A DNA stretch of 64,000 bases, taken from positions 7,307-71,306 of the forward strand of contig JBFKDA010000001.1 of the NCBI GenBank assembly GCA_041619955.1, written 5' to 3'. Positions 6,014-57,742 of this stretch are shown piece after piece (position 1 is the stretch's first letter; each line of letters starts with the position of its first letter). The position numbers were made by a program, and so were the translations under genes. Below the pieces are notes generated by a model, which saw nothing but the letters and a program-made list of their open reading frames with translations, was not told the origin of the DNA and made no database searches. Source of the stretch: Acidimicrobiia bacterium (GTDB lineage: Bacteria > Actinomycetota > Acidimicrobiia > Spongiisociales > JAOTWH01).

Positions 6014-6637
6014 CTAGAGCTTGTCGAGCAGCTTGGCCTTCTGGGCGGCGAACTCGTCGTCGCTGAGCCGGCCTTCGGCGTGCAGGCGGGCGAGGCGCTC
6101 GAGCTGTGCGGTGGGATCGGAGGCGGCGTGGTCGGAGACGCCGGGTGAGCGCTGGAGGTTGTGCGACCGCTCCTCCCGGATACGGTAGATGAGCGACTGG
6201 AACTCCTCGGGCTCCGGGATGTCGTGGAAGTGGCTCTGGCCCTGCTCACCCGCCGACTCGATGAGCAGATCGCCGGAGCGCAGCAGCCGCTCGATGACCG
6301 TCTGGCTGAACTGCACGTCGTTGATGTTCTCGAGCGGGATCTCGACGCCGCGTCTCGCGATGAATCCGGACCGGCGGATGAGGCGTTCGTTGGTCAGGAC
6401 GTAGTGGGTGAACCACCAGTGGATGAAGGGGCGGACGCCCCACCAGAAGATGAAGACCGCGGCGGCGGCAGTGACGATCCAGTTGACGACGACGGCGGGG
6501 TCCCACAGCCAGACGAGCACGATCGCCGCGAGCGAGAGCAAGACCGCGCCGACGGGGATCGCCAGCAGTCGCCAGTGCGGCCGGAAGTCGCGGACGATCT
6601 CCTCGCCTTCGGTGAGGAGTCTCTTCGGGTAGGGCAT
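6014..6637 (-). CDS. Membrane bPH_2 (YdbT/DUF304-like PH domain) protein with C-terminal SHOCT domain
   Basis: 207 aa. Two TM helices followed by the PH-like segment NERLIRRSGFIARRGVEIPLENI. C-terminal SHOCT signature LERLARLHAEGRLSDDEFAAQKAKLL. RBS GGAG upstream of the ATG at 6637. Confidence 0.8.
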   Translation of the reverse strand: MPYPKRLLTEGEEIVRDFRPHWRLLAIPVGAVLLSLAAIVLVWLWDPAVVVNWIVTAAAAVFIFWWGVRPFIHWWFTHYVLTNERLIRRSGFIARRGVEIPLENINDVQFSQTVIERLLRSGDLLIESAGEQGQSHFHDIPEPEEFQSLIYRIREERSHNLQRSPGVSDHAASDPTAQLERLARLHAEGRLSDDEFAAQKAKLLDKL

Positions 6638-6649
6638 CGTTCTCCATCC

Positions 6650-7968
6650 TAGAGATAGCGGAAACCCCGAGGGAGCTTCGACCGAGGTCTCCACCCTCTC
6701 GGGGTTTCCAGCCGGTTTGGCGATTGGACCCTTGCGGGACCCCGTCGCCAACCCTGATGGACACTCCTTGCGGATCATCCACCTCGCCCGGTCGGACTCC
6801 GGCCGAAGCCGGAACCTCCGGGCTGACGGGCCGCAACCGCCCGGGTCCGCTAGACCCGTCCGGCTGGCTCCCTTGCGGAAGCGCCGACCCGCCCACTCCC
6901 CGTTCGACGTGCCGGACCCGAAGGCCCTGCCCGCCGGCAACCTCTAGCGGAGGCGCCGGGGAGCGCCCCCATCCGGCCCTTGCGGGCCTTCCGGGGGCTC
7001 CCGACCGACCCTTGCGGGCCTCTCGGGAGGCCGCCCGTCCGGTTTCCCGTTCGGGCAACGGCGGGCAATGTAGGGGGGTGCCGCGGCCCCCGTCAAGCTG
7101 AGGCGCTACTTCGTTTTCGCGACCGCCGAATCGTTTTCGCGCTTCCACACCGCAGGTCGGACGAGCCAGCCGCAATGCAGGTCGGACGAGCCAGCCACAT
7201 TGCAGGTCGGACGAGCGTCGTGGTGCGGTGCCGCGCAGTGCGGGCTCGCCGACCTGCGGGCTGCCGCGGTCCACCTGCGCTTGGCGCGCGGCCGGCGCTG
7301 GCGCGCCGGCCTGGAACCGTCACTTGGCTGGTCGGACGCGCGTCGTGGTGCGGTGCCGCGGATTGCGGGCTCGCCGACCTGCGGCTGCCGCGGTCGCTAG
7401 GACGTTTGGGCGTGGCCGGCGCTGGCGCGCCGGCCTGGAGCCAACCATTCTACTTCGTTGCGGATACCGCGCCGAGGGTCCGTCGCCGAAACGCAGCCTG
7501 CCCCCAACCGCGCAACTGCCCGGCGCCGAAGCGCCGGGCAGTTGATGAAGCCCCGAAGGAACCTCCGCCGAAGCATCGGCCCCTCCGGGGCTTCGACCGA
7601 AGCGGTCTTTCGACCCCTCCGGTACCCGTGCTTCCGGCCGAAGCCTTCCGCTCGGGCTGGCGTTGCGCCGGGTTCGACCCGGCTGACCCGAAGGCCCTCC
7701 GGGCCGTCCTCCCGAAGGAGGCCCCCGGCGCAACCTCCCCGAACCTTGCGGCCCGGGGAACCTCACCGAGCCTTGCGGCCCTGTGAAGCCGCCTCTCCGG
7801 GTGTTACCCCTTCGAGGCAGCGGCAATGTACGTGCCGGTCCCCCCCGTCGTCAAGCTGAGGCCATGGTTAGATTTCGCGACCGCTCGTTTCGTTTTCGCG
7901 ACGATCGGAACCGGCCCGACGCGGCGGGGAACTACACGCGTGTCACTCGCGCCGCGTATAGTGCACCC
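6650..7968. repeat. 1.3-kb ORF-free repeat- and hairpin-dense divergent intergenic region
   Basis: It contains seven copies of CCTTGCGG(G/C)CC. A 25-bp unit GCAGGTCGGACGAGCCAGCC repeats 2.6 times (about 7151-7215). A roughly 125-bp unit repeats twice (7205-7329 and 7330-7454). Each large unit carries the hairpin ggtcggacg..gctcgccgacc and the perfect palindrome ggccggcgc-tggc-gcgccggcc. Two diverged roughly 300-bp modules (about 6780-7140 and 7590-7900) both end in ggcaatgta..ccccc..gtcaagctgagg..tcgttttcgcg. An 11-bp stem hairpin lies at 6661-6708. Confidence 0.75.
7941..7968 (+). promoter_or_regulatory. PafBC/RecA-NDp-type damage-inducible promoter driving a leaderless transcript of the Cas4-like nuclease
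   Basis: TGTCACTC - N8 (gcgccgcg) - TATAGT with the ATG 6 nt after the -10 hexamer. This matches the actinobacterial RecA-NDp architecture tTGTCRgtg-N8-TAnnnT with leaderless start spacing. Confidence 0.5.
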
Positions 7969-8772
7969 ATGCCCCATGAGCCGCTCGCCAGCCTGTCGCC
8001 GAGCCGGGCCAGTGACTTCAAGACCTGCCCCCAGCTCTTCAAGTTCCGCGCCCTCGACCGCCTCGAGGAGCCGGCGACCACCTGGCAGGCGCGGGGCACC
8101 ACCGCCCACCTCGCCCTCCAACAGCTCTTCGACCTGCCTCCCGCCGAACGCAGCCCCGGTGCGCTCTACGACCTGTTCCGGCGCGCCTGGTCGTCGGCTC
8201 GCGACGACGAGTACGCCGGGCTGTTCGGCGATCAGGACGCCGAACAGGAGTGGGGTGTCGAGAGCCTCACGCTGCTCGCCAACTACTTCGGCCTGGAGGA
8301 TCCCCGCACGTTCGACCCGCTCGACCGGGAACTCGACGTGACCGAGGAGGTCGACGGGATGACGATCCGGGGGATCCTCGACCGCATCGACGAGACCCCC
8401 GACGGCGACCTCGTCATCACCGACTACAAGACGGGCAAGGCGCCGCCCCAGCGGTATGCGCTCCCGGCGTTCTTCGCCCTCAAGATCTACGCCATGCTCA
8501 TCCGCCGCCAGACCGGCCGGACGCCGGTCGAGTTGCGGCTGCTCTACCTCAACGGCCCGACGATGTACAGCATCGCCGTCACCGACCGCCAGCTCGACGC
8601 TGTCGAGCGGCACGTACGGGCGCTGTGGACCGCCATCGACCGGGCGATCTCCGGAGACCACTTCCCGGCCCGCACCGGTCCCCTGTGCGGATACTGCTCG
8701 TTCCAGGATCGCTGCCCGGCATGGAGCGAGGCGCCCGCCGCCGAGCCTGCGCTGGCGGCCGCCGGCGCGTAG
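7969..8772 (+). CDS. Cas4/RecB-like PD-(D/E)XK exonuclease with 4Fe-4S cysteine cluster (DUF83-type)
   Basis: N-terminal FKTCPQLFKF (first Cys). ITDYKTGK nuclease motif. C-terminal CGYCSFQDRC (C-x2-C-x5-C). No CRISPR/cas context nearby. 267 aa. Confidence 0.85.
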   Translation: MPHEPLASLSPSRASDFKTCPQLFKFRALDRLEEPATTWQARGTTAHLALQQLFDLPPAERSPGALYDLFRRAWSSARDDEYAGLFGDQDAEQEWGVESLTLLANYFGLEDPRTFDPLDRELDVTEEVDGMTIRGILDRIDETPDGDLVITDYKTGKAPPQRYALPAFFALKIYAMLIRRQTGRTPVELRLLYLNGPTMYSIAVTDRQLDAVERHVRALWTAIDRAISGDHFPARTGPLCGYCSFQDRCPAWSEAPAAEPALAAAGA

Positions 8773-10146: not shown

Positions 10147-10632
10147 GTGGAACCTCCCGTCATCTACACGATCGGCCACGGCGACGCGTCGTTCACCGCG
10201 ATCGCTGCCCTGCTGGAGCGCCACCTCGTCCAGACGCTGGTCGACGTGCGCTCGCAGCCGTACTCCCGCCACGCCCCCGACTTCAACAAGGGACCGCTCG
10301 CCGACCTGGCGGCGGCGGCCGGCCTCGGGTACCGCTGGATGGGCGACCGCCTCGGCGGGCGGCCGACCGATCCCGACCTGCTGGACCCGGCCGGCGCGCC
10401 CGACTGGCTCCGGGTGGCGGAGTCGCCGTCCTATCGGGGCGCGATCGCCGAGCTCATCGAGCTGGGGCGCGGCGGCCGCACCGCGATCCTGTGCGCCGAG
10501 CGCGATCCGCGTCACTGCCACCGGACGCTCCTGCTCGCGCCGACGCTGGCGGCGGCCGGGGCGAGTGTCTGCCACATCCTTTCCGACGGGGCGCTGGAGC
10601 CGCACCATCCCACGCTGTTCGGCCCCGCCTGA
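10147..10632 (+). CDS. DUF488 family protein
   Basis: VIYTIGHG N-terminus is typical of DUF488. GTG start 7 nt after a TACATT -10-like hexamer (possibly leaderless). The ORF-track start at 10078 would overlap gdhA. Confidence 0.7.
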   Translation: MEPPVIYTIGHGDASFTAIAALLERHLVQTLVDVRSQPYSRHAPDFNKGPLADLAAAAGLGYRWMGDRLGGRPTDPDLLDPAGAPDWLRVAESPSYRGAIAELIELGRGGRTAILCAERDPRHCHRTLLLAPTLAAAGASVCHILSDGALEPHHPTLFGPA

Positions 10633-10665
10633 TTCGCGTCACACCCCGGCGATAACGTCACGGGC

Positions 10666-13644
10666 ATGAACGGCGACTGGCGGGTGACGCCTGCGACGTG
10701 GGACGAGGCGGTGGCCGCCACCTCCGGGCCCCAGCTCGTGGTGGGCGGCCCGGGCACCGGCAAGACCGAGTTCCTGGTGCGCCGGGCGCTGCACCTCGTC
10801 GCCGAGGAGCGCGTGCGCCCCGAGGAACTGGTGGTGCTCAGCTTCTCGCGACGGAGCGCGGCCGACCTGCGCGCCCGCATCGAACGAGGCCTGGCCCGGT
10901 CGTTCACCGTCGTGCCCGCGTCGACGTTCCACTCGCTGGCCTTCCGGCTGCTCGAGGCCGAGGCGCCGGCCGTGCTCGGCTGGGAGCGGATGCCCACGCT
11001 GCTCACCGGGCCCGAGCACGTCGCGCTGGTCGCCGAGCTGCTCGCCGAGGAGGACCCCGGCGCATGGCCCCTCCCGCAGCGCGACCTGCTGCCGACCACC
11101 ACCTTCGCGATGGAGATCCGCGACTTCATGCTGCGCTGCCAGGAGCAGCTCGTCGGGCCCGGCGAGCTGGCCGCCCGGGCCGACGAGCGAGCCGACTGGC
11201 GTGCCCTGCCCGGCTTCGTCGCCCGCTACCTCGCAGAGCTACGCGCCCGCGGCCGCATCGACTACGGCACCCTCCAGGCCGAGGCCGTGCACCTGCTCGA
11301 CCATCCCGGCGTGCTGGCGCGGGTGACGGAGCGCTGCAGCCACATCGTGGTCGACGAGTACCAGGACACGACGGTGGCGCAAGCAGCCCTGCTGCAGCGC
11401 CTGTACCGCCCGCACCGCAACCTCACGGTGGCTGGCGACCCGTACCAGTCGATCTACAGCTTCCGGGGAGCCGAGCTCGGCAACGTCGCCGCCTTCCCGC
11501 AGGCGTTCCCCGCCGCGACGGGCGAGCCGGCCCGGCGCCTGGTGCTGACCACGTCGTTCCGCGTGCCGGCGGCCGTCCTCGACGCAGCGGTGCGGGTCAC
11601 CGAGAGCGGCGACCTGCCGGGCGCCGCCGGTCCGGTCGCCCCGGCGGCCGGGGCGGGATCGGTCGAGACGTACGTGTTCGACCAGCAGAGCCACGAGGCG
11701 GAGTGGATCGCATCCGAGCTGCAGCGCACCCACCTGCTCGACGGCACCCCGTACCGGCGCATGGCGGTGCTGGTGCGCACCAAGCGGCGCCTGCTCCCGG
11801 AGCTGTCGCGGGCGCTCGAGCGGCGCCGCATCCCCCACGACCGGCCGGATGCCCGCCTCGCCGACCACCGCGCCGTCCGGATGATGCTGGACGTGGTGAT
11901 CGCGGCGACCGAGGACGGCGACGAGCGCCACCGCGCGCTGCGGCGGCTGCTGCTGGGTCCCTTGTTCGCGCTCCCGCTCGGGCAGGTGCGCCAGGCCGAG
12001 CGGCAGGTCGCAGCCGGCTCCTCCTGGAACGACGTGCTGGCCGAGCTGGCGGGCGGCGAGGTAGTCGCCGGCCTGCTCACCGACCCGGCGTGGGCTCGCG
12101 AGCGCCCGGCGGCGGACGGCTTCTGGACGCTGTGGACCACGCTGCCCCACCTCCCCGACCTCGTCGCCGACCCGGCCCATGCGGAGGACCGGGCTGCCTG
12201 GAGCTCGCTGTCGCAGGCGCTCGGCCGGCTGCGGGAGCGCGACCCGGCCGCCACGCTGGAGGGCTACCTCCGGCTGACCGAGGAGGAGGAATTCGAGGCG
12301 ACGCCGCTGCTCGGGTTCCGCCCCCCGGATGAGGACCGGCTGACCCTCACCACCCTCCACCAGGCCAAGGGCCTGGAGTTCGACTTCGTGGTCATCGCCG
12401 ATGCCGTGGAGGGGTCGTTCCCCGATCTCCGGCCACGCGAGTCGCTGCTCGGCGCCCGCCACCTGTCCCCGTCGCAGCCGGCAGGAGCGGCAGAGTATGC
12501 GCGGTTCCGCCTGCAGGAGGAGATGCGCCTCGCCTACACGGCCATGAGCCGCTCACGGCGGCGGGTCGTGTGGACCGCGACCGCCGCCGGGGTCGACCAG
12601 GGCGAGGGGGCGCCGAGCCGGTTCCTGGCCCTGGTCGCGGGCACGACCACGGTGGCGGAGGCGGCCCGCACCCCGGCCGAGCCCGATCGCCAGGTCGTCA
12701 CGCCGCTGGAGGCGGAGGCCTACGTGCGCCGCCGGTTGCGCGACCCGGCCGCCGGCGAAGCTGCCCGGTTGGCGGCGCTGTGGGCGCTCGGCGAGTGGGC
12801 CCGGTGGCGGCTGCGATGGCCTGGCGCGTACCGTGGCTCCCGGGAGCGAGGCCCCGACGGCGGCCTCGTCGGCCCCGACCACACGCTGTCCCCCAGCCAG
12901 GTGCAGGCGTACGTGACCTGTCCCCGCCGGTACGCCCTCGAGCGCCGCCTGCACGTCGGTGACCGGCCGACCGTGTACAGCTCGTTCGGCACGACCATCC
13001 ACGACGTCCTGGAGGCGGCCGAGCGGGCCGCGCTCGACCGCGGCGCCGACCGGTCGGACCTGGCCGATGCGCTGGCGGCGCTCGACGAGCGCTGGCAGCC
13101 CGCCGACTACGGGGGCGGTGCCTGGGCGGCGGGTTGGCGGGCCCATGCCGAGCGCACGCTGCGGCACCTCTATGCGAACTGGCCGGGGAAGGGCCGGCCG
13201 GTGGCCCTGGAGCACCCGCTCGACCACGAGCTCGACGGCGTGCGCTGGGTGGGCAGGGCCGACCGCATCGAAGTCGACGGGAAGGGGCGTATCACGGTCG
13301 TCGACTACAAGACCTCGAAGAGCCCCGCGACCAGCGAGGAGGCGGCGGCGTCGATCCAGCTCGCGTTCTACCTCATCGCCGCGGCGGCGGACCCGGAGAT
13401 CACGGCGGCCGGGCGGCCGGCGGCCGCCGAGTTCTGGTACCCCGCCACCTACAAGCTGCGGTCGGTCGCCACCCGCAGCCTCGACGTCCGGCGGCTCGAC
13501 GAGGTGCTGGCCGTCATGCATGACGCGGCGGCGGGCATCGCCGCGGAGCGATGGGACGCACGGCCGGGCCCGGGCTGCGAGTCGTGCCGGGTGCGGCTCG
13601 TGTGCCCGGCGTGGCCCGAGGGGCGGGAGGCGTACGTCGCATGA
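10666..13644 (+). CDS. adnA: AdnA-like subunit of heterodimeric helicase-nuclease (UvrD-like SF1 motor + C-terminal RecB-type nuclease with Cys cluster)
   Basis: Walker A GGPGTGKT, VVDEYQDT, UvrD-like motifs. C-terminal VTCPRRY, VVDYKTSK and CESCRVRLVCP. Its stop overlaps the adnB start (ATGA). Confidence 0.8.
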   Translation: MNGDWRVTPATWDEAVAATSGPQLVVGGPGTGKTEFLVRRALHLVAEERVRPEELVVLSFSRRSAADLRARIERGLARSFTVVPASTFHSLAFRLLEAEAPAVLGWERMPTLLTGPEHVALVAELLAEEDPGAWPLPQRDLLPTTTFAMEIRDFMLRCQEQLVGPGELAARADERADWRALPGFVARYLAELRARGRIDYGTLQAEAVHLLDHPGVLARVTERCSHIVVDEYQDTTVAQAALLQRLYRPHRNLTVAGDPYQSIYSFRGAELGNVAAFPQAFPAATGEPARRLVLTTSFRVPAAVLDAAVRVTESGDLPGAAGPVAPAAGAGSVETYVFDQQSHEAEWIASELQRTHLLDGTPYRRMAVLVRTKRRLLPELSRALERRRIPHDRPDARLADHRAVRMMLDVVIAATEDGDERHRALRRLLLGPLFALPLGQVRQAERQVAAGSSWNDVLAELAGGEVVAGLLTDPAWARERPAADGFWTLWTTLPHLPDLVADPAHAEDRAAWSSLSQALGRLRERDPAATLEGYLRLTEEEEFEATPLLGFRPPDEDRLTLTTLHQAKGLEFDFVVIADAVEGSFPDLRPRESLLGARHLSPSQPAGAAEYARFRLQEEMRLAYTAMSRSRRRVVWTATAAGVDQGEGAPSRFLALVAGTTTVAEAARTPAEPDRQVVTPLEAEAYVRRRLRDPAAGEAARLAALWALGEWARWRLRWPGAYRGSRERGPDGGLVGPDHTLSPSQVQAYVTCPRRYALERRLHVGDRPTVYSSFGTTIHDVLEAAERAALDRGADRSDLADALAALDERWQPADYGGGAWAAGWRAHAERTLRHLYANWPGKGRPVALEHPLDHELDGVRWVGRADRIEVDGKGRITVVDYKTSKSPATSEEAAASIQLAFYLIAAAADPEITAAGRPAAAEFWYPATYKLRSVATRSLDVRRLDEVLAVMHDAAAGIAAERWDARPGPGCESCRVRLVCPAWPEGREAYVA

Positions 13645-16600
13645 CCGGCGCGCCGCGGCTGGTGCCGACTCCCGAGCAGCAGGACGTGATCGACCACCCG
13701 CTCGAGCCGCTGCGGGTCGCGGCCGGGGCCGGCACCGGTAAGACCACCACGATGGCGCTCCGGCTGGCGCGGCTGGTACGCGAGGCGGGCGTGGCCCCGG
13801 AGAGCGCGCTCGGCATCACGTTCACGAACAAGGCCGCCGCCGAGCTGGCCGATGCCATCCGCCTCCGACTCCCCGGCCTCGCTGCGGAGGGGCGGGAGGT
13901 GCAGGTCGCGACGTATCACGGCTTCGCATACGACCTGCTCCGCGAGTTCGGCGCTGCGGTCGGCGTCGAGCGGTCGGTGCAGGTGATCACGCCCGGCTAC
14001 TCCCGCCAGCTGCTCCGCGACGCGCTCGCGGCCGGCACGTACGACGCGCTCGACCTGACGTGGGCGCCGGGCCGGGTCGCCGAACTGGCCGGGCTGGCGG
14101 GGCGGCTCGGCGACCACCTGCGCACACCGGCCGACCTGCTGGCCGGGCCTGCGCCGGATCCAGGTGACGACGTGGAGGCGAGGCGCCGGGAGCTGGCGCG
14201 CGCGCTCGTCCGGTACCAGGACATCAAGGCCCGCATCGGCGGCGTCGACTACCCGGACCTCATCCGGCTCGCCCACCAACTCGTGACCGGCCGGCCCGAG
14301 ATCGCCGGCCTGGTCCGCGCCCGCTACCGGGTGGTCATCCTCGACGAGTACCAGGACACCAACCCCGCGCAACGCGAGCTGCTGCTGCGCATCTTCGGCA
14401 ACGGGTTCCCGGTGACCGCGGTCGGCGATCCCGACCAGACGATCTACGAGTGGCGGGGCGCGTCGCTCGACAACTTCGCAGCGTTCCCGCGTCACTTCCA
14501 CGGGCCGGACGGGGCGCCGGCGCCGACCCGACGGCTGCTGCTCAACCGCCGCTCCGGCGTGGCGATCGTGGCCGCCGCCAACGAGGTCCGCCGCCGGATC
14601 ACCGGCGCAGCCGACGATCCGGACGACGCAACCGCCGATGGCCTGACGCCCGCGCCCGGAGCGTCGCCGGGGGCGGTCACCGTGGGGTGGTTCCCCACCG
14701 CGCTCGCCGAGGCCAACTGGGTGGCGTCCGAGGTGCGGCGCCTCCACGACGACGAGGGCGTCGCCTGGCGCGACGTGGCCGTGCTCTTCCGCAAGAACCA
14801 GCAGATCGGGCTGGTGCGGGAGGCACTCGAGGCGGAGGGGATTCCGGTCGAGGTCGCGGCACTCGGCGGCCTGCTCGGCATCCCCGAGGTCGCCGACCTG
14901 CACGCCTGGCTCCGCATCCTGGGCAGGCCCGACGACGGGCCGGCGCTGGTCCGGATCATCGTCGGCAGCGCGTTCCGGCTGGGCCTCGGCGACCTGGCGC
15001 CGCTCGCCCGCTGGGTGAGGGAGCGCAGCCGCGACCGGCCCGACGACGACGAGCACGTCCCGGAGTGGACGATGCTCGAGGCCATCGAGCACCTCGGCGA
15101 GTGCGACGGCGTCCGCCCCGGCGCGGCCGGGCGCCTCGGGGAGTTCATCGGGCTCTACCGCCAACTCCTCGCCCACGCCCAAGGCGACAGCCTCGTGGAG
15201 CTGTGCCGCCGCATCCTCGATCGGACCGGCGCGTGGCCGGAGGTCGAGGCGCTCGACGACGCAGCGCGCCTCTCGGCGAGGCTGAACCTCTACCGGTTCC
15301 TCGATCTCGCCGAGGAGTGGAGCCCGCTCGAGGGGCGGCCGTCGCTCGACGCGTTCCTGGACTACCTCGACCTGCTCGCCGAGGATCGTGGCGCCGAGGA
15401 GCTCGACACCGCGCGCCTGGGCGGCGCCGACGCGGTCGCGCTGCTCACCGTCCATCGCGCCAAGGGTCTGGAGTGGCCGGTGGTGTTCCTGCCGGCCCTG
15501 TGTACCGGCACGTTCCCCGCCGCGTCGCGCGGCTTCCCCGACCCGTTGCGGTTCCCCCAGTACCCGCCGCACGAGCTGCGCCTCGACGCTCAAGCTGTCG
15601 GCCCGCTCCCCTCCGACCACGGCGAGCGCATGGCCCTGCTGCGCGCCGGGCACGACGCGCAGGAGTGGCGCACCGCGTACGTCGCCGTGACGCGGGCCAA
15701 GGAGCGCCTGGTCGGCACGGGTGCGTTCTGGTACACCGACCGCCAGCCGAAACAGCGCAGCGAGCTCTACGAGCTGCTCGCCGCCATGCCGGCGACGCTG
15801 GTGGCCGCCGACGCGGCCGATCCCGGCGACGCGCCCCCGCCGCCGCGGGTGATCGACCTGACCGAGACCGCCCCGGACCCGCACTTCGGGCCCGGCGGCT
15901 GGCACGAGGCGCTGCGCGCCGAGTTGGCCGCTCCCGGGTGGGCGACCGGGGAGGCCACGCGCCGGGGCCGGGCCGAGCCGTACCATGCCCAGGTGGACCA
16001 GCTCCGCATCATGCTGGAGGGCCTTCCCGACGTGCCCGACGCCGCCGGCAGCTCCGAGGGCGCGTTCGCCACCTCGGTCACGGGGCTGGTGACCTACGCG
16101 CAGTGCCCGCTGCGCTTCCGCTGGAGCGAGGTCGACCGGCTGCCGCGGCGCCCCTCGGCGGCGGCGCGGCGCGGCGTCGAGGTCCACCGCCGGATCGAGC
16201 TCCACAACCGCGGGAACCTGGCCCTCGACGAAGCCGACCCCGGGTTCTACGACACCGCGCCAGGCGAGGGCACCGGCAGCCGGGCGGCGGCCGCCGCGGC
16301 ATACGACGCATTCCTCGCTTCGCGGTTCGCCGACGTGCGGCCTCGCTTGGTTGAAGCGCCGTTCGACCTGGCGCTGGCATCCGGGCGCGTCAGGGGGCGG
16401 ATCGACGCCGTCTACGAGCCCGAGCCGGGCAGCTGGGAGATCGTCGACTTCAAGAGCGGGTCGCCGCGGGCCGGCGCCGCGGCCCGCGTCCAGCTCGAGG
16501 CGTACGCGGTGGCGGCCACCGATGCCGGCTTCGCCGCGACGACCCCGGAGCGGCTCGCGGTGACGTTCGCCTACCTCGGCGATGGGCCGGTGGAGATCAC

Positions 16601-16871
16601 CGAGGAGGTCGACGCCGGCTGGCTCGAGGCGGCGCGCGATCACCTCGACGCGCTCGTCGCCGGCGCCGCGGCCGGCGACTTCCCGGCGGCGCCCTCACCC
16701 GAATGCGCCCGGTGCGACTTCCTCCGATTCTGCGCGGACGGGCAGGCATGGCTCGCGGCGCACGGGGAGGGGCCCCCGGGGCAGGCGGTGGGGACAACCG
16801 TTGCGGCGTCGCCGCCGGAGGGCGCCGCGACGCCTGCCGATGGCGCAACGCCGCCGGGGTTGGGGCCCTGA
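13641..16871 (+). CDS. adnB: AdnB-like subunit of heterodimeric helicase-nuclease (UvrD-like motor + RecB-type nuclease with Fe-S cysteines)
   Basis: GAGTGKTT Walker A, ILDEYQDT, TVHRAKGLEW. C-terminal AQCPLRFRW, IVDFKSG and CARCDFLRFC. 1076 aa from the ATG at 13641. Confidence 0.8.
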   Translation: MTGAPRLVPTPEQQDVIDHPLEPLRVAAGAGTGKTTTMALRLARLVREAGVAPESALGITFTNKAAAELADAIRLRLPGLAAEGREVQVATYHGFAYDLLREFGAAVGVERSVQVITPGYSRQLLRDALAAGTYDALDLTWAPGRVAELAGLAGRLGDHLRTPADLLAGPAPDPGDDVEARRRELARALVRYQDIKARIGGVDYPDLIRLAHQLVTGRPEIAGLVRARYRVVILDEYQDTNPAQRELLLRIFGNGFPVTAVGDPDQTIYEWRGASLDNFAAFPRHFHGPDGAPAPTRRLLLNRRSGVAIVAAANEVRRRITGAADDPDDATADGLTPAPGASPGAVTVGWFPTALAEANWVASEVRRLHDDEGVAWRDVAVLFRKNQQIGLVREALEAEGIPVEVAALGGLLGIPEVADLHAWLRILGRPDDGPALVRIIVGSAFRLGLGDLAPLARWVRERSRDRPDDDEHVPEWTMLEAIEHLGECDGVRPGAAGRLGEFIGLYRQLLAHAQGDSLVELCRRILDRTGAWPEVEALDDAARLSARLNLYRFLDLAEEWSPLEGRPSLDAFLDYLDLLAEDRGAEELDTARLGGADAVALLTVHRAKGLEWPVVFLPALCTGTFPAASRGFPDPLRFPQYPPHELRLDAQAVGPLPSDHGERMALLRAGHDAQEWRTAYVAVTRAKERLVGTGAFWYTDRQPKQRSELYELLAAMPATLVAADAADPGDAPPPPRVIDLTETAPDPHFGPGGWHEALRAELAAPGWATGEATRRGRAEPYHAQVDQLRIMLEGLPDVPDAAGSSEGAFATSVTGLVTYAQCPLRFRWSEVDRLPRRPSAAARRGVEVHRRIELHNRGNLALDEADPGFYDTAPGEGTGSRAAAAAAYDAFLASRFADVRPRLVEAPFDLALASGRVRGRIDAVYEPEPGSWEIVDFKSGSPRAGAAARVQLEAYAVAATDAGFAATTPERLAVTFAYLGDGPVEITEEVDAGWLEAARDHLDALVAGAAAGDFPAAPSPECARCDFLRFCADGQAWLAAHGEGPPGQAVGTTVAASPPEGAATPADGATPPGLGP

Positions 16872-32599: not shown

Positions 32600-32603
32600 C
32601 GCT

Positions 32604-32730
32604 CTTCGCTTCGCTCAGAGCGATGAGGGGCGCCGCCTTCGACGGCGGCTGCCGCAGAGATCCATCGTCCTTCGCTTCGCTCGGGCCGAAGGGGGGCGCT
32701 GCCTTTGGCGGCGGTTGCCACCGCGTCGGA
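32604..32730. repeat. Imperfect tandem repeat (about 63 bp x2) with GC hairpins in the herA-sbcD intergenic region
   Basis: cttcgcttcgctc...gggcgcc gcc ttcgac ggc ggc..tgcc repeated. Each copy holds a gccgcc/ggcggc stem-loop. Confidence 0.6.
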
Positions 32731-32761
32731 GGTCGGGGGGGTGCTCGGCCGGCGCGGCAAG

Positions 32762-35421: not shown

Positions 35422-35481
35422 CCGGCGATGGTAGCGATGGGGCCCGACGCGGCCCGGGCACTCCCGGTAGCGTTGCCGGCC

Positions 35482-53524: not shown

Positions 53525-54784
53525 TCAGCGGGCGGGCGGCGGGGTCCCTCGGTCGGGCAGGAGGCGGGCTTCGGCGGTGGTCAGCTCGACGCCGAACGAC
53601 GCCAGGCTGGCACCGAGGAGCGCCCGCGGGAAGAGCTCGGCCGACAGCAGCGGCCGCAGCCGAGCGTCGATCTCGAAGGCGACGGCTTCCGGGGCCGGCG
53701 TCCCGCCCGCCTCGGGCGCGCGCCGGCGCCACCTCCGGCGCGGCGGCGCCGGGACCGGGACCGCGGCGACGGCGGCGCCCACCGCCTCCTCGATCCGCTG
53801 CTGCGGGACGGCGGCACGTAGCTGGCGGCCGACGTCGCCCCCGGCCTCGACGGACAGGGTGGCGACGAAATCGGCGATGCGGCAGACCGCGTCGGGTTGC
53901 GCCGCGACGCCACCGGCGACCAGCCCGGCCGCAGCGTCGTGGAGAACTGCCGCCCAGCGCCGGTCGAAATCGACGGACCCGCCCCCGGTCACCGCCGCGC
54001 CCGCCGCCACGGAGTCCGCGGTCCGCCGGACGTCGGCGAGCAGCTTGCCCAAGGCCACCCGTTTGGCGTCGAGCCGCTCCCGGAGGAAGCCGGCCAGCTC
54101 GTCGACCCCGAGGGGCGGCCCGGTGGTCGGGTCGGCGGCGATGGTGAAGATGCCCGGAGTGCCCATGCCGGACGCGGCGAGGGCCGCAGCCGCGTCGGCG
54201 GCGACCTCGCCGACCTCGCCGGTCACCCGGTCGATCTGGTTGAGCACGAACACGAACTGGTCGGCGTAGTCGGCGAGGGGGGCGAGCCGCTCGCGATGCA
54301 GCGCCCGGTCCCGGTACTTCTGGGGATCGAGTACCCACAGCACCCCGTCGACGTCCGGCAGCACCGCGTCCACCGTGGCGCGGTGGGCCGAGACGATGCT
54401 GTCGTGATCGGGGAGGTCGATCAGGGCGAGCCCGGGGAACCGGTCGTGGCCGACCCGTTGGTCGATGCCGTGGCGGTCGAACAGGCGGGCAAGACCGGGC
54501 TCGGCGTCGTGCGGATACCAGGCCAGCGGCCGGTCGGTGTGCGGCCGGATTCGGCTGACCTCGGCGACCTGCTCGCCGGCGAGCGCGTTGAGCAGGCTCG
54601 ACTTGCCCGATCCGGTGCCGCCGGCGATCGCCAGCACCAGCGTGCCACCGAGGAAGCCGCGGCGCGCCCGCGCCGCCTTCGCCGCCTGCGCGGCGGCGGC
54701 GAGCTGCTCGTCGTCGAGCACCCCCTCGGCCCGCCCGATGGCGAGGTCGAGGGCGTCGAGCACGGTTGCGAGGTCGGCGCTCAC
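53525..54784 (-). CDS. P-loop GTPase with helical extension (dynamin/IniC-like or MMR_HSR1-type), subunit B
   Basis: G1 GGTGSGKSSLLNAL, G3 DLPD, G4 NQID, followed by an Ala-rich helical region. GTGA overlap with the upstream GTPase. Confidence 0.65.
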   Translation of the reverse strand: MSADLATVLDALDLAIGRAEGVLDDEQLAAAAQAAKAARARRGFLGGTLVLAIAGGTGSGKSSLLNALAGEQVAEVSRIRPHTDRPLAWYPHDAEPGLARLFDRHGIDQRVGHDRFPGLALIDLPDHDSIVSAHRATVDAVLPDVDGVLWVLDPQKYRDRALHRERLAPLADYADQFVFVLNQIDRVTGEVGEVAADAAAALAASGMGTPGIFTIAADPTTGPPLGVDELAGFLRERLDAKRVALGKLLADVRRTADSVAAGAAVTGGGSVDFDRRWAAVLHDAAAGLVAGGVAAQPDAVCRIADFVATLSVEAGGDVGRQLRAAVPQQRIEEAVGAAVAAVPVPAPPRRRWRRRAPEAGGTPAPEAVAFEIDARLRPLLSAELFPRALLGASLASFGVELTTAEARLLPDRGTPPPAR

Positions 54785-56307
54785 TCGAGTGCCTTGGCCG
54801 CGGCGGCCACTCGCTCGGCGGCGGTCGTCAACGCACTGGCGGCCTCGGCGAGCCGCTCGGTGCCCCCGAGCGCGGCGAGGAACCGGCCGGCGTCGCGGCT
54901 CAGCACCGCCGCGAGCTCGCTAGCGAGCGCGTCCGTCGCCCAGGCGACGAGCTGGCGTCCGTCGGCACTGCCGAAGGCGCGTTCCACGGTCTCCGGCACG
55001 GGCGACGAGCCGCCGAGCGCGGCGGTGCTCACCGCCTGGGCGACCCGGCGCCGCCGCCGGGCCCGCATGCGCCGCGGTGCGCGCTCCCCGACGGCCTGCT
55101 CGACCGTCCCGGCCCACCTGGCCACGGCGGCCTCGGCGTCGTCGTGGGTGCCGGACCCGTGCCGCCACAGCGCGCCGCCGCTGCGTTCGAGCAGCGCGAC
55201 GCCGGCGTCGGACCGCTCCCACCCGGCTGCCGCTTCCTGTGCGGCGGTGCCGGCGAGGTTCGTGACGAGGTGGGCGAGCGTGGCACGGTCCGCCGGGAGG
55301 GGCCCCCGCTCCAGCCGCTCGAGGAGCGCCTCGCCGGCGCGCCGGTACGGGTCCTCGATCGCCGCGGCCAGCCCGCGGGCCCGGGCCTCGGCGGTGGCCA
55401 CGGCTCCCGCCAGCGGCCGGACCCGATCGGCGAGATCGACGACCGCGCCCTGGGTCGCCTGGCGGGCGAGCCGCCGGCGCAGCGTGAGGTCGGTCAGTTC
55501 CTCCAGCTCGCGGCGGAGCGGGGCCACCGCGGTGGCCGGCACGCCTCCGTGCTGAAGGTCGACCTGCTGCTCCCGGACCGCGAAGATCAGGGCAGGGTCG
55601 GCGTCGAGCAGCAGCCCGGCGGCTGCGAGCTTCGATGCGTAGTCCTCGACGAGCGCCTGCCTGTCCGGCGGGCTGGCAGGCAGCCGGTTGAGGACGAACA
55701 GCATCGGCACGCCGCGGCGCTGCACGAGGCGCATGAAGGTCCAGGCGTCGGCGTCGGCGTACCGCAGCGCCGACGATACGAACACGCACAGGTCGGTGAT
55801 GGCGAGCACGTCCCGTGCCACCACGCGGCCGTCGTCGGCGACGTGGTCGAACGGCGGCGTGTCGACCAACGTCAGCATCCGCGTGACCGGGTCGTCGCCG
55901 AGGATGGTCTCCACGGTCGATCCGGCCCGCTCCCGGACCTGCCGCATGAACTCGCGCCAGTAGCGGGCTCCGTGGTCCCGGTGGGCCCACACCACGGTCG
56001 TCGAAGTGCTGGGCCGGATCGCCCCGGGGGTGCCGACCTTGGCCTGCGCGAGGCTGTTGACGATCACCGACTTGCCGGTACCGGTGGCTCCGAAGCACGC
56101 GACGACCAGCGGGGCCTCCCGGTCGTGGAGGCGAGGCAGGAGGTGCTCGCGGATGTCGCGCACCGCCTCGGACCGGACCCGCTCGGCGCTGCCGAACCCG
56201 GGCAGGTCGAGCGAGAAGGCCTCGAGCACGTCGGCGAGCGACGCCAGGGCCGGGCCCAGGTCGCCGGTGCTCCCGCCGGCCTCGGCCGATGGCTGTGCCG
56301 CGATCAC
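54781..56307 (-). CDS. P-loop GTPase with helical extension (dynamin/IniA-like), subunit A
   Basis: G1 GATGTGKSVIVNSL, G3 DTPP. Long Ala-rich coiled-coil C-terminus. RBS GGGAGAA upstream of the GTG at 56307. The track ORF is over-extended at its N-terminus. Confidence 0.6.
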   Translation of the reverse strand: MIAAQPSAEAGGSTGDLGPALASLADVLEAFSLDLPGFGSAERVRSEAVRDIREHLLPRLHDREAPLVVACFGATGTGKSVIVNSLAQAKVGTPGAIRPSTSTTVVWAHRDHGARYWREFMRQVRERAGSTVETILGDDPVTRMLTLVDTPPFDHVADDGRVVARDVLAITDLCVFVSSALRYADADAWTFMRLVQRRGVPMLFVLNRLPASPPDRQALVEDYASKLAAAGLLLDADPALIFAVREQQVDLQHGGVPATAVAPLRRELEELTDLTLRRRLARQATQGAVVDLADRVRPLAGAVATAEARARGLAAAIEDPYRRAGEALLERLERGPLPADRATLAHLVTNLAGTAAQEAAAGWERSDAGVALLERSGGALWRHGSGTHDDAEAAVARWAGTVEQAVGERAPRRMRARRRRRVAQAVSTAALGGSSPVPETVERAFGSADGRQLVAWATDALASELAAVLSRDAGRFLAALGGTERLAEAASALTTAAERVAAAAKALE

Positions 56308-56443
56308 ACACCAATTCTCCCATACCGGCGGCGCGGGCCCGCGCACCGCCGGTCTCGCCCGACCCCCCTCGCGACGGTTCCCGGTCCGGTGCCTGCCTGC
56401 CCCCGCCGGAAAAATGTCGCACCCCCCGCTTACGGTGGCCGGC

Positions 56444-57742
56444 ATGACCACACCAGAGTTCTCAGATCCCGCCCCCGCCGCCGGCGCGTGCCTGCCACCG
56501 TGCGGCGTGGCACGCGGCAGTGGCCACCAGGTCCGCATCGCCGACCTGTCCGTCGACGACCAGGTGCTGGCCGAGCTGCTCGACGCCCAGCCGGCCGAGG
56601 CCTGGCCTGGCCTGGTCCGCCGGGCGCTCACGGTGGGAGCGGCTGGCCTCGTCGACATGGGGGTCGGTGTCGGGCTGCGCGCGCTCGACGAGCGGGTGCG
56701 CGCCACCCTCGACGCGGTGGCCACCGAGGCGCACACGCGGGCGCGCGACACGCTCGACGAGGCCGGCCGGGCGCTCACGGCCCAGTTCGACCCCGAGATG
56801 CGCTCGTCGCTCGTCGCCAGGGCCATCGCCGAGTTCGGCGCCACCCACGACCGGCTGCTCGGGGAGCTCGACCCGTCGTTGTCCACCAGCCACACGGCAC
56901 GGTTCATCGCCGCGGTCACCGAGCTGCTCGGACCTGGCGGCCGGCTCGCCGAGACCCTCACGGCCGCGCTCGACCCCGACGCCGACGGCTCCGCGCTGGC
57001 CAGGTTGGGGGCTTCGGTCGACGCCCGCTTCCAGGAGCTGCGCGACCTGATCATGCACGAGAGCGGGCGGGCGGCCGAGGCGGAGCGCGGCACCGCGAAG
57101 GGCGGCGAGTTCGAGGAGACGGTCGAGCTGCGGCTGCGCGAGCTGGCGCGCGGGCTCGGCGCAGTGGTGGAGCGGGTGGGTCGCGAGCCGGGCGCGCTGG
57201 GTGCCGACTCGGTGGTCGGCGACTTCGTCGTCACCTTCCAGGGCGGCGCCCGCCTGGTGGTCGAGGCCAAGAACGTCGCCAAGCTGAGCCTGGCCGGGCG
57301 CAACGGCATCCTCGGCGAGCTCGACCGGGCCGCCGCCAACCGTCAGGCGGACTTCGCCATCTGCGTGTCGGCGCAGGACGCCTACCCGGCGGAGGTCGGC
57401 CACTTCGGCGTGTACGGCAGCCGGGCGCTGGTCGTCGACGGCGGCGACGGCGTGCTGCTGGGCGTGGCGGTGCGGTGGGCCCGGGCAGTGCTCGCCGCGG
57501 CCCCGGCGAGCGCGGCCGAGCTCGACCCGGGCTTCATCCTCGAGCGGCTCGCCCGGCTCAAGAAGCTCGCCCAGCGCTTCGTCACCGGCCGGCGGACCCT
57601 GTCCGACGTCCGCAGCTCGGTCGAGCGGGTACGGGACGACCTCGACGCCATGCGGTGCGACCTGCTCGAGCTGGTCGACGACATCGGAAGGGAGGTGGCT
57701 CCGACCTCACAATCGAGCGACGCGGTGGCCCGCGTGGCGTGA
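56444..57742 (+). CDS. Coiled-coil protein with C-terminal PD-(D/E)XK nuclease-like domain (RmuC/DUF2130-like)
   Basis: N-terminal helical/coiled-coil half. C-terminal DFVVTFQGGARLVVEAKNV (D...EAK motif resembling RmuC ViDSK). Divergent from the GTPase pair. Confidence 0.55.
   Translation: MTTPEFSDPAPAAGACLPPCGVARGSGHQVRIADLSVDDQVLAELLDAQPAEAWPGLVRRALTVGAAGLVDMGVGVGLRALDERVRATLDAVATEAHTRARDTLDEAGRALTAQFDPEMRSSLVARAIAEFGATHDRLLGELDPSLSTSHTARFIAAVTELLGPGGRLAETLTAALDPDADGSALARLGASVDARFQELRDLIMHESGRAAEAERGTAKGGEFEETVELRLRELARGLGAVVERVGREPGALGADSVVGDFVVTFQGGARLVVEAKNVAKLSLAGRNGILGELDRAAANRQADFAICVSAQDAYPAEVGHFGVYGSRALVVDGGDGVLLGVAVRWARAVLAAAPASAAELDPGFILERLARLKKLAQRFVTGRRTLSDVRSSVERVRDDLDAMRCDLLELVDDIGREVAPTSQSSDAVARVA

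What the first reader, a model, noticed from the sequence alone, without database searches (positions are those of the whole stretch)
7941..8772. Cas4-like Fe-S nuclease behind a PafBC/RecA-NDp-type leaderless damage promoter, next to adnAB
The sequence TGTCACTC-N8-TATAGT ends 6 nt before the ATG at 7969. This matches the actinobacterial RecA-NDp promoter architecture tTGTCRgtg-N8-TAnnnT, which the WYL-domain activator PafBC uses for LexA-independent DNA-damage genes. The spacing makes the transcript leaderless. The downstream product is a stand-alone Cas4/RecB-like PD-(D/E)XK nuclease with a C-x2-C-x5-C cluster. It lies 1.9 kb upstream of the adnA-adnB helicase-nuclease genes and has no CRISPR context. 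It may be an uncharacterised damage-inducible end-processing partner.
Basis: partly seen in the sequence, partly recalled or inferred. Interest (0 to 1): 0.6.

Follow-up and report, generated by a model that had tools for sequence, protein, structure and literature searches.

The report
Damage-inducible nuclease gene, PafBC-type promoter

Summary
TGTCAC-N10-TATAGT lies at 7941-7962, followed by 6 nt and ATG 7969. This opens a 267-aa PD-(D/E)XK nuclease with four invariant cysteines. The stop is at 8772, 1.9 kb before adnA-adnB, and there is no CRISPR context.

It is not chance. Three more genes in the window, adnA among them, carry GTC-N12-TAnnnT followed by 6-7 nt and ATG (4 observed, 0.05 expected). 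In 72 of 80 orthologue loci across Actinomycetota the same box sits 6-8 nt before the in-frame start.

The protein is the orthologue of M. tuberculosis Rv2119. It is 42% identical over its full length, is the reciprocal best hit, and a Mycobacterium locus shows the mpa-trmI-nuclease-hisG gene order. A published dataset already lists Rv2119 as mitomycin-induced in a recA mutant and as a PafBC candidate, with its box 7 nt from the start, like adnA.

New here are the phylum-wide conservation, an Acidimicrobiia box variant (TGTCAC/TGTCAT), and nuclease-adnAB linkage in 33 of 37 Acidimicrobiia loci, operon-like in seven.

Untested are pafBC in this genome, damage induction, the transcription start and the enzyme's activity.

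The parts
7941..7946 (+). PafBC-type -26 element TGTCAC, containing the GTC triplet that PafB reads
   Evidence: Sequence. Motif definition from PMC8635444. The GTC is kept in 72/80 orthologue promoters and T precedes it in 66/72.
7957..7962 (+). -10 hexamer TATAGT (TANNNT), 10 nt after the -26 hexamer
   Evidence: Highest information content in the promoter alignment together with TGTC. No sigma-70 -35/-10 pair was found on the + strand in 6500-8100.
7969..8772 (+). CDS of the 267-aa Rv2119-family Fe-S PD-(D/E)XK nuclease; predicted leaderless, with transcription starting at or 1 nt before the A of the ATG
   Evidence: Translation. PF12705 at 7.6e-38. Homologues are about 263-270 aa. Invariant H47, D138, D152-Y-K154, Y174, C20, C240, C243, C249. 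AlphaFold pLDDT 94. Foldseek. Reciprocal best hit to the Mycobacterium Rv2119-synteny gene.
7864..7968 (+). N-terminal extension in the public 302-aa gene call; probably not coding, because it contains the promoter
   Evidence: P0001 is 302 aa and 100% identical. The extension is Arg-rich and not shared by homologues.
10637..10658 (+). Second box, cGTCAC-N10-TAACGT, 7 nt before the adnA ATG at 10666
   Evidence: An equivalent GTC(A/G)CAyCC box precedes adnA in 10 Acidimicrobiia loci. M. tuberculosis adnA has its box at distance 7.
10666..13644 (+). adnA-like helicase-nuclease (UvrD domains plus C-terminal PDDEXK_1)
   Evidence: The stand-alone nuclease aligns to its residues 737-986 at 28% identity, E 2e-13.
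13551..16871 (+). adnB-like helicase-nuclease (the ORF as listed; the true start probably lies near the end of adnA)
   Evidence: adnB follows adnA directly in related loci.
35428..35448 (-). Box cGTCGG-N10-TACCAT, 6 nt before ATG 35421 (minus strand). It leads a 315-aa ORF (35421-34474) with no family match, upstream of a second unknown ORF and sbcD/sbcC.
56415..56436 (+). Box TGTCGC-N10-TACGGT, 7 nt before ATG 56444. It leads a 432-aa ORF (56444-57742) with no family match.

Best explanation
Positions 7941-7962 form a PafBC-type ('RecA-NDp' or P1) promoter. It has a -26 element TGTCAC, a -10 hexamer TATAGT and no -35 element. By analogy with the mycobacterial mechanism, DNA damage produces single-stranded DNA, which activates the WYL-domain heterodimer PafBC. 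PafBC inserts between sigma-A region 4 and the -26 element ('sigma adaptation'), so that the housekeeping RNA polymerase fires at a promoter it otherwise ignores. Transcription starts at or 1 nt before the A of ATG 7969, so the mRNA is leaderless. The product is the Acidimicrobiia orthologue of M. tuberculosis Rv2119: a 267-aa stand-alone PD-(D/E)XK nuclease with a four-cysteine Fe-S cluster, of the Cas4/AddB/AdnA/Dna2 fold. It belongs to a damage regulon that in this window also includes adnAB and two unknown genes. Shown here: the motif, its geometry, its recurrence in the window, its phylum-wide conservation in front of this gene, the fold and catalytic residues, orthology to Rv2119, and linkage to adnAB in Acidimicrobiia. 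Inferred: that a PafBC orthologue is the factor in this organism, that the gene is damage-induced here, the exact transcription start, and that the enzyme trims single-stranded 5' tails or DNA ends, probably on substrates unwound by AdnAB.
For: Motif and spacing were read directly and equal tGTCgg(N10)tA(N3)T (PMC8635444). Four boxes in the window each sit 6-7 nt before the ATG of a long ORF, against 0.05 expected, and one of them is adnA, the reference PafBC-dependent gene (PMC8682763). In 72 of 80 orthologue loci, from Acidimicrobiia to Streptomyces, Mycobacterium, Nocardia and Bifidobacterium, the box lies 6-8 nt before an in-frame ATG or GTG even where the N-terminus differs in length. Information content peaks at TGTC and TA...T, with the flanks unconserved. 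The background is 12 unrelated ORFs in 1.36 Mb. There is no + strand -35/-10 pair and no LexA box nearby. Orthology: 42% identity over residues 8-261 to the Mycobacterium sp. gene lying between trmI and hisG next to the proteasomal ATPase gene, with a reciprocal best hit of E 5e-51 against 5e-11 and 4e-9 for the AdnB and AdnA domains. Rv2119 is mitomycin-induced in a recA mutant, and its box TGTCGGCGCCCAACCCTAAGCT lies 7 nt from the start (PMC8151990). MSMEG_3908(3907) is listed with the P1 motif (PMC5656591 Table S1). Fold: PF12705 at 131 bits, pLDDT 94, Foldseek matches to ACE1, AdnA, AddB, Dna2, Exo5 and Cas4. The catalytic D138, D152-x-K154 and Y174 and four Cys are invariant. Link to AdnAB: adnA-adnB lie next to the nuclease gene in 33 of 37 Acidimicrobiia-like loci (32 downstream on the same strand, one on the opposite strand upstream) and in 0 of 43 loci of other classes. 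In 7 loci the gap from the end of the nuclease match to the start of the adnA match is under 160 nt.
Against: No pafB or pafC homologue is in the 64-kb window or in any Acidimicrobiia locus fetched. The published PafBC species sets hold no Acidimicrobiia, so the regulator is assumed, not seen. The Acidimicrobiia box reads TGTCAC or TGTCAT where other classes have TGTCGG or TGTCCG, so a diverged or different factor is possible. The promoters of this gene in Acidimicrobiia also carry a conserved GAATCCCA / GAACTACA stretch just 5' of TGTC, which the PafBC model does not explain. There are no expression data, transcription-start data or enzymology for this protein or, in the papers searched, for any orthologue. 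Outside Acidimicrobiia the gene is not linked to adnAB.
Confidence: 0.8

Rival explanations
1. The promoter is real and leaderless, but in Acidimicrobiia it is served by a regulator other than a PafBC orthologue. Candidates are another WYL-family activator, or a factor that reads the palindrome ACACGCGTGT (7934-7943) overlapping the box. In that case the regulon may respond to a signal other than DNA damage.
For: The box variant is TGTCAC/TGTCAT rather than TGTCGG. There is extra conserved sequence 5' of TGTC that is specific to this gene's promoter in Acidimicrobiia. No pafBC was seen. Actinobacteria average about 5 WYL proteins per genome (PMC6789036).
Against: The GTC triplet, the 12-nt distance to TANNNT and the regulon content (adnA plus the Rv2119 orthologue) are the same as in mycobacteria. 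The box changes gradually across classes in front of the same orthologous gene, as expected if regulator and site co-evolve.
Confidence: 0.12
2. It is a constitutive, -10-only leaderless sigma-A promoter, and the TGTC is conserved for reasons unrelated to activation.
For: From general knowledge of mycobacterial transcription-start maps, many actinobacterial leaderless promoters have only a TANNNT element. Rv2119 has a sizeable basal read count in untreated cells (supplement row).
Against: TGTC is as conserved as the -10 hexamer at a fixed 12-nt distance in 72 of 80 loci. Only about 1% of other ORFs in the same loci show it. Rv2119 is induced by mitomycin C.
Confidence: 0.05
3. The public 302-aa gene call (ATG 7864) is right, and the 'promoter' lies inside coding sequence by chance.
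For: An ATG at 7864 is in frame with no intervening stop, and a public annotation uses it (P0001).
Against: Most of the homologues listed are 258-280 aa and align from residue 5-9 of the 267-aa form. The extension is Arg-rich and unconserved. The box-plus-start arrangement is conserved even where N-termini differ.
Confidence: 0.03

Closest known systems
M. tuberculosis Rv2119 ('RecB-like exonuclease', UniProt O33254), with probable M. smegmatis counterpart MSMEG_3907
   Same: It belongs to the same protein family and is of similar size (278 aa against 267 aa). A Mycobacterium orthologue is 42% identical over its full length and is the reciprocal best hit. The promoter type and box-to-start distance are the same. 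It is induced by mitomycin C independently of RecA.
   Different: In Mycobacterium the gene lies beside trmI and the proteasome ATPase gene with no adnAB within 10 kb of it; in M. tuberculosis adnAB is over 1 Mb away. Here and in 33 of 37 Acidimicrobiia loci it lies next to adnAB. The box is TGTCAC here and TGTCGG or TGTCCG there. Neither protein has been characterised biochemically in the papers I could search.
AdnA nuclease domain of mycobacterial AdnAB (PDB 6PPJ, 6PPR, 6PPU, 7SJR)
   Same: It is the nearest solved relative by sequence (E about 1e-8) and among the best by fold (TM 0.66-0.71). It shares the D-x-K motif and the C-x2-C-x5-C Fe-S cluster. The window's own AdnA C-terminus is 28% identical.
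   Different: AdnA's nuclease is fused to a UvrD-type motor, whereas this protein stands alone.
Cas4 (SSO0001, PDB 4IC1; type I-C Cas4, PDB 8D3L) and ACE1, the Argonaute-associated Cas4-family protein (PDB 9IAB, 9IAC)
   Same: The fold class is the same and there are four cluster cysteines. ACE1 is the top Foldseek match (TM 0.69, E 1.6e-10), and Cas4 entries match at E about 1e-5.
   Different: Sequence identity is 14-16%. The score is below the curated Cas4 cut-off (TIGR00372 33.3 against 65), and PF01930 is not reported. There is no CRISPR, cas or Argonaute context.
PafBC / RecA-NDp (P1) promoters of mycobacteria, such as recA P1 and adnA
   Same: They share the GTC triplet at about -26, 12 nt to TANNNT, no -35 element, and frequent leaderless targets.
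   Different: The promoter type has been described only for the class Actinomycetes. Here it is seen in Acidimicrobiia with A-C or A-T instead of G-G after GTC.

Membership tests
PafBC-dependent (RecA-NDp / P1) promoter | GTC triplet in a -26 element, placed 12 nt upstream of a TANNNT -10 hexamer: tGTCgg(N10)tA(N3)T | tested here: met
   TGTCAC-N10-TATAGT at 7941-7962. Motif taken from PMC8635444.
PafBC-dependent (RecA-NDp / P1) promoter | No canonical -35 hexamer | tested here: met
   The hexamers 16-18 nt upstream of TATAGT (TACACG, ACACGC, CACGCG) match TTGACA at no more than 2 of 6 positions. The consensus scan finds no + strand sigma-70 promoter in 6500-8100.
PafBC-dependent (RecA-NDp / P1) promoter | Motif conserved in front of orthologous genes and shared by other damage genes of the same genome | tested here: met
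   72 of 80 orthologue loci carry it. In the window, adnA and two more genes carry it.
PafBC-dependent (RecA-NDp / P1) promoter | pafB and pafC (HTH-WYL-WCX pair) present in the genome | not testable with these tools
   Neither is in the 64-kb window (Pfam scans; tblastn and phmmer with a B. breve PafB).
PafBC-dependent (RecA-NDp / P1) promoter | PafBC occupancy and PafBC-dependent, RecA/LexA-independent induction by DNA damage | not testable with these tools
   Only indirect evidence exists. The M. tuberculosis orthologue is induced by mitomycin C in a recA mutant and is flagged as a PafBC candidate. No LexA box lies near the promoter.
Leaderless transcript | Transcription start coincides with the start codon: -10 hexamer 6-8 nt upstream and no Shine-Dalgarno sequence | tested here: inconclusive
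   The geometry fits: 6 nt (gcaccc) here, and in orthologues 7 nt in 37 loci, 6 nt in 30 and 8 nt in 5. The start itself can only be shown by 5'-end mapping.
Rv2119 orthologous group (stand-alone actinobacterial RecB-family Fe-S nuclease) | Full-length similarity and reciprocal best hit to the gene in the mpa-trmI-Rv2119-hisG neighbourhood | tested here: met
   The L101 gene has 42% identity over residues 8-261. Its neighbours are a proteasomal ATPase, TrmI and HisG. The reciprocal hit is E 5e-51 against no better than 5e-11 for the AdnA/B domains. The identification with Rv2119 itself rests on the H37Rv gene order from my own knowledge and on the shared annotation. The Rv2119 sequence could not be fetched.
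PDDEXK_1 (PF12705) | Score above Pfam's gathering threshold, with catalytic D, D/E-x-K and Q/x-x-x-Y residues | tested here: met
   131.3 bits against a cut-off of 22. D138, D152, K154 and Y174 are invariant.
Cas4 (TIGR00372 / PF01930) | Score above the curated family cut-off | tested here: not met
   TIGR00372 scores 33.3 bits against a cut-off of 65. PF01930 is not reported at E <= 0.01.
Cas4 (TIGR00372 / PF01930) | Encoded with cas1/cas2 or next to a CRISPR array | tested here: not met
   No cas domains and no CRISPR-like array in the 64 kb.
Cas4 (TIGR00372 / PF01930) | One N-terminal and three C-terminal cysteines (C-xn-C-x2-C-x5-C) for an Fe-S cluster on a RecB-type core | tested here: met
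   C20, C240, C243 and C249 are invariant. Foldseek matches Cas4 entries at about 1e-5. Cluster binding itself was not tested.

The most novel reading that the evidence does not exclude
The Rv2119-family nuclease may be the unidentified 'alternative nuclease' that works in trans behind the AdnAB motor. It is co-regulated with adnAB by the same damage promoter across Actinomycetota, and in Acidimicrobiia it is physically coupled to adnAB, in some genomes as one nuclease-adnA-adnB operon. It would trim the unwound 5' strand. That would explain why M. smegmatis with both AdnAB nucleases inactivated still carries out AdnB-motor-dependent homologous recombination (PMC5314763).
Probability: 0.25. 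Interest if true: 0.65.

Novelty: new member of a known kind. Interest (0 to 1): 0.33.

Why it matters
For this window the result is mostly a confirmation: a known promoter type in front of a known, though uncharacterised, damage-regulon gene. Three points go a little further. (1) The PafBC-type box is shown to be an ancient, phylum-wide feature of this one gene, reaching into Acidimicrobiia, where the system has not been described. It could be used to correct start codons; the public call here is 35 codons too long. (2) The Acidimicrobiia box variant and regulon sample (adnAB, the nuclease and two unknown genes) give a starting point for defining the damage regulon of an uncultured class. (3) The conserved nuclease-adnAB neighbourhood gives a concrete, testable candidate for an open question in mycobacterial recombination: which nuclease, if any, resects ends when the AdnAB nucleases are dead. 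The test is to delete MSMEG_3907 in the adnA-D934A adnB-D1014A background.

Tried and rejected
(1) I tried to fetch Rv2119 itself by an exact scan of genome contigs for its published box TGTCGGCGCCCAACCCTAAGCT. It gave 0 hits, so orthology was shown through a Mycobacterium sp. locus instead.
(2) The 36-sequence alignment A1 was too diverse for the search for related loci. A 10-sequence alignment, A2, worked.
(3) The listing of cluster members on 10 representatives gave no organism names.
(4) The 2018 Cell Reports PafBC ChIP-seq paper is not held. The supplements of PMC8682763 are not held. A search on guessed locus tags (MSMEG_3907, SCO1651, Tfu2914, cg1688) returned only unrelated papers. No paper links PafBC and Acidimicrobiia.
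(5) I searched for pafB in the window and in all 116 loci by a WYL regex, tblastn and phmmer. Only the B. breve locus L114 has it.
(6) A LexA/SOS box was considered and rejected. There is no CGAAC-N4-GTTCG-like site within the promoter region.
(7) True Cas4 or a CRISPR role was rejected on the family cut-offs and the genomic context.
(8) I first suspected that the TTTCGCG repeats upstream were a second operator of the nuclease promoter, possibly ClgR-like. This was rejected: they belong to a minus-strand sigma-70 promoter module.
(9) RNAalifold on the heterogeneous 63-sequence leader alignment gave no consensus. Per-sequence folding statistics were used instead.
(10) Rfam gave nothing at gathering thresholds, and only chance-level hits at E <= 1 in 6500-8000.
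Full report
**1. The observation**

The sequence reads gTGTCACtcgcgccgcgTATAGTgcacccATG.
- TGTCAC is at 7941-7946 and TATAGT at 7957-7962. Six bases follow, then ATG at 7969.
- The ATG is in frame with the stop at 8770-8772 and gives 267 aa.
- The arrangement equals the 22-nt in vivo PafBC motif tGTCgg(N10)tA(N3)T, a -26 element plus a sigma-A -10 hexamer, defined in PMC8635444.
- The weakly conserved 'gg' positions read AC here.
- No -35-like hexamer lies 16-18 nt upstream, and the consensus scan reports no + strand sigma-70 promoter in 6500-8100.
- No actinobacterial LexA box is nearby.

**2. Is it more than chance?**

- TGTCR-N11-TANNNT occurs twice in the 74% G+C window against 0.28 expected. 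This is suggestive only.
- Relaxing to GTC-N12-TANNNT gives six sites. Four of them are followed at 6-7 nt by the ATG of a long ORF:
  - the nuclease (7969);
  - adnA (box 10637-10658, ATG 10666);
  - an unknown 432-aa ORF (box 56415-56436, ATG 56444);
  - an unknown 315-aa ORF on the minus strand (box 35448-35428, ATG 35421), upstream of sbcDC.
- First-order Markov simulations give 0.05 such sites per window, or 0.003 with an ORF of at least 200 aa.

**3. The protein**

- It matches PF12705 (PDDEXK_1) end to end at 131 bits.
- It scores below the curated Cas4 cut-off: TIGR00372 33 bits against 65.
- About 5,700 cluster representatives match at E <= 0.001, and 325 at E <= 1e-30.
- In an alignment of 36 diverse full-length members, these residues are invariant: C20, G43, H47, R61, D138, R139, D152-Y153-K154, Y174, C240, C243 and C249. 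They make up the RecB-type catalytic set plus the C-xn-C-x2-C-x5-C cluster ligands.
- The AlphaFold model is confident (pLDDT 94, pTM 0.89).
- Foldseek places it with ACE1 (Argonaute-associated Cas4-family protein, TM 0.69), the AdnA nuclease domain (TM 0.66-0.71), AddB, Dna2, Exo5 and Cas4.
- By sequence, the nearest solved relative is the M. smegmatis AdnA nuclease domain.
- The window's own AdnA C-terminus is 28% identical (E 2e-13) and AdnB's is 26% identical (E 1e-6).
- Most of the listed homologues are 258-280 aa. The public 302-aa gene call starting at ATG 7864 therefore probably over-extends the gene across its own promoter.

**4. Conservation of the promoter**

- Metagenome relatives at 62-70% identity already showed TGTCAT(T)-N-TAnnnT followed by 6-7 nt and ATG, even where the N-terminus is longer.
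- A scan of species-representative genomes returned 80 loci. There are 37 Acidimicrobiia-like loci at 57-71% identity. The other 43, at 37-45% identity, come from other actinomycete groups, including Streptomyces, Mycobacterium, Nocardia, Aeromicrobium, Jiangella, Sanguibacter, Frankiaceae, Streptosporangiaceae and Bifidobacterium.
- In 72 of the 80, (T)GTC-N12-TAnnnT lies 6-8 nt before an in-frame ATG or GTG with no intervening stop.
  - Spacing is 7 nt in 37 loci, 6 nt in 30 and 8 nt in 5.
  - The start is ATG in 61 and GTG in 11.
  - T precedes GTC in 66 of 72.
- Information content peaks at TGTC and TA...T, while the spacer and flanks drift.
- As a control, the same pattern with an ORF of at least 100 aa occurs 94 times in the 1.36 Mb of loci. 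Of these, 72 are this gene, 10 are adnA and 12 are others.
- Acidimicrobiia mostly use TGTCAC or TGTCAT. The other classes mostly use TGTCGG or TGTCCG.

**5. Orthology to Rv2119 and what is already known**

- In a Mycobacterium sp. locus (L101) the homologue lies between TrmI (divergent) and HisG, next to the proteasomal ATPase gene. From my own knowledge of H37Rv, this is the order Rv2115c (mpa) ... Rv2118c (trmI), Rv2119... Rv2121c (hisG).
- Its best match in the window is the stand-alone nuclease (E 5e-51), against 5e-11 and 4e-9 for the AdnB and AdnA domains.
- Rv2119 is called a RecB-family or RecB-like exonuclease in PMC2587704 and PMC8151990.
- PMC8151990 reports it among the few repair genes over-expressed in a mitomycin-treated recA mutant.
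- The PMC8151990 supplement lists a PafBC motif, TGTCGGCGCCCAACCCTAAGCT, at 2378358-2378379 with the gene start at 2378386 (distance 7), flagged 'PafBC_candidate'. It lists adnA (Rv3202c) with its motif also at distance 7.
- PMC5656591 Table S1 lists MSMEG_3908 (operon head 3907) among the proteins lowered in a pafBC mutant whose genes carry the P1 motif. That 3907 is the Rv2119 orthologue is my inference from gene numbering.
- The pair 'this nuclease plus a PafBC box at leaderless distance' is therefore on record. I found no biochemical or genetic study of the protein.

**6. Gene neighbourhood**

- In 33 of 37 Acidimicrobiia-like loci, adnA-adnB lie next to the nuclease gene: downstream on the same strand in 32, and on the opposite strand upstream in one (L066). 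Three of the four exceptions are cut by contig ends.
- In 16 loci a glutamate dehydrogenase gene sits between them on the other strand, as it does here.
- None of the 43 loci from other classes has adnAB within 10 kb.
- In seven loci the gap from the end of the nuclease match to the start of the adnA match is under 160 nt, which looks like an operon. In ten others adnA has its own GTC(A/G)CAyCC box, as in the window.
- This recurrent linkage, together with co-regulation, is the main new evidence that the nuclease functions with AdnAB.

**7. Mechanism and how sure each step is**

- Promoter class: high confidence, from geometry, recurrence, conservation and regulon content.
- Activator: inferred to be a PafBC orthologue that acts by sigma adaptation after binding single-stranded DNA (PMC8635444; PMC11804915 abstract). 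No pafB or pafC is in the window or in any Acidimicrobiia locus fetched, and the published species sets are all from the class Actinomycetes.
- Leaderless start: inferred from spacing.
- Enzyme: a metal-dependent nuclease with an Fe-S cluster. From general knowledge of Cas4, AddB and AdnA, it most likely acts on single-stranded 5' tails or ends.
- Role behind AdnAB: a hypothesis. Gupta et al. showed that M. smegmatis with both AdnAB nucleases dead still recombines through the AdnB motor. They noted that an alternative nuclease might compensate, and that no mycobacterial 5'-3' single-strand DNA exonuclease had been characterised (PMC5314763). The same text indicates that AdnA handles the 5' strand. 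AdnA's nuclease domain is this protein's nearest solved relative by sequence.

**8. Verdict**

The case is a new member, in a different class, of a known gene-promoter pair, so the interest is modest. The phylum-wide footprint, the Acidimicrobiia box variant and the linkage to adnAB add some value and a testable idea.

**9. By-products**

The 1.3-kb region upstream of the promoter (6638-7940) is not empty.
- It holds two copies of a minus-strand sigma-70 promoter module: CGCGAAA-N13/14-CGCGAAA, then about 15 nt, then TTGACG-18-TACATT. The -35/-10 pairs run 7854 to 7825 and 7096 to 7067.
- The modules drive strongly structured RNAs that begin with a GNRA-capped hairpin and match nothing in Rfam.
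- They are conserved in 2-3 tandem copies between a bPH_2/SHOCT gene and the nuclease gene across Acidimicrobiia.

Separately, some family members carry an intein with a LAGLIDADG domain inserted exactly in the catalytic DYK|TG motif.

Noticed in passing
window 7825-7899 and 7067-7141 (minus strand); loci L001-L087: There are two copies of a conserved minus-strand promoter module: CGCGAAA-N13/14-CGCGAAA, about 15 nt, then TTGACG-18-TACATT. They point away from the nuclease gene. I found 79 non-redundant copies in Acidimicrobiia loci, usually 2-3 in tandem within 0.1-3 kb upstream of the nuclease gene. TTTCGCG density is 5.1/kb there against 0.25/kb elsewhere. The factor that binds the 20-21-nt-spaced repeats is unknown.
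   Followed up: partly
window about 7817 to 7510 and 7059 to 6638 (minus strand): The transcripts predicted from those promoters are strongly structured. 48 of 63 start with a GNRA-capped hairpin (2.7 of 63 in shuffles). Mean MFE z is -4.0 over 170 nt, with about 3 GNRA/UUCG hairpins per 170 nt, and stem changes that look compensatory by eye. There is no Rfam match. The distal copy is a roughly 420-nt leader of a bPH_2/SHOCT gene (true ATG about 6637), and the proximal copy has no ORF. This may be a new RNA or leader family, tandemly duplicated.
   Followed up: partly
window 6902-7140 vs 7672-7905; 7145-7219; 7196-7444: The intergenic region is a patchwork of repeats. A block of about 235 nt is duplicated 760 nt apart (73-80% identity). 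There is a 25-nt unit in 3 tandem copies and a 125-nt unit in 2. Short tandem repeats also follow the promoter module in other loci (for example L003, L009, L037, L062).
   Followed up: partly
window 7928-7943; Acidimicrobiia promoters: Just 5' of TGTC, this gene's promoters (not those of adnA or the other boxed genes) keep a GAATCCCA / GAACTACA stretch. In the window, ACACGCGTGT (7934-7943) is a perfect 10-bp palindrome overlapping the box. It could be a second, gene-specific operator.
   Followed up: no
window 35421-34474 (-) and 34477-32762 (-), then sbcD (start 32599, -) and sbcC (31668-28927, -): A boxed, apparently leaderless 315-aa ORF and a following 571-aa ORF match no Pfam or NCBIfam family. 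They lie directly upstream of sbcDC on the same strand and are possible new damage-regulon members. The 32600-32760 spacer holds a direct repeat of about 68 nt.
   Followed up: partly
window 56444-57742 (+): A boxed, apparently leaderless 432-aa ORF has no family match. It lies next to a dynamin/GTPase-like gene (53525-54919, -) and further unknown ORFs.
   Followed up: partly
window 10148-10632 (+): A DUF488 gene ends 5 nt before the adnA box. It is not found next to adnA in the related loci (tblastn).
   Followed up: partly
proteins P0199, P0222, P0268, P0210 (family members): These members carry an insertion of about 330-450 aa exactly inside the catalytic motif (DYK | GLA(L/V)xTPLPTP...(I/V)PTHN | TG), and three of the four have a LAGLIDADG_3 domain. 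It looks like an intein without a Cys1 nucleophile (class-3-like: block-F Cys, THN end). Inteins favour conserved sites of important DNA-metabolism proteins.
   Followed up: partly
L114 357-1448 (-) (Bifidobacterium breve): A PafB orthologue (E 4e-50 to chain AY of PDB 7P5X) lies about 9 kb from the nuclease gene. In L086 and L099 a Dop/PafA-like gene (MSVLRVMGTETE...) also carries the box at 6 nt.
   Followed up: partly
window 7864-8772: The public annotation of this gene (302 aa) starts 35 codons too early, judging by homologue lengths and the conserved promoter. The box could serve as a start-codon guide for this family.
   Followed up: yes
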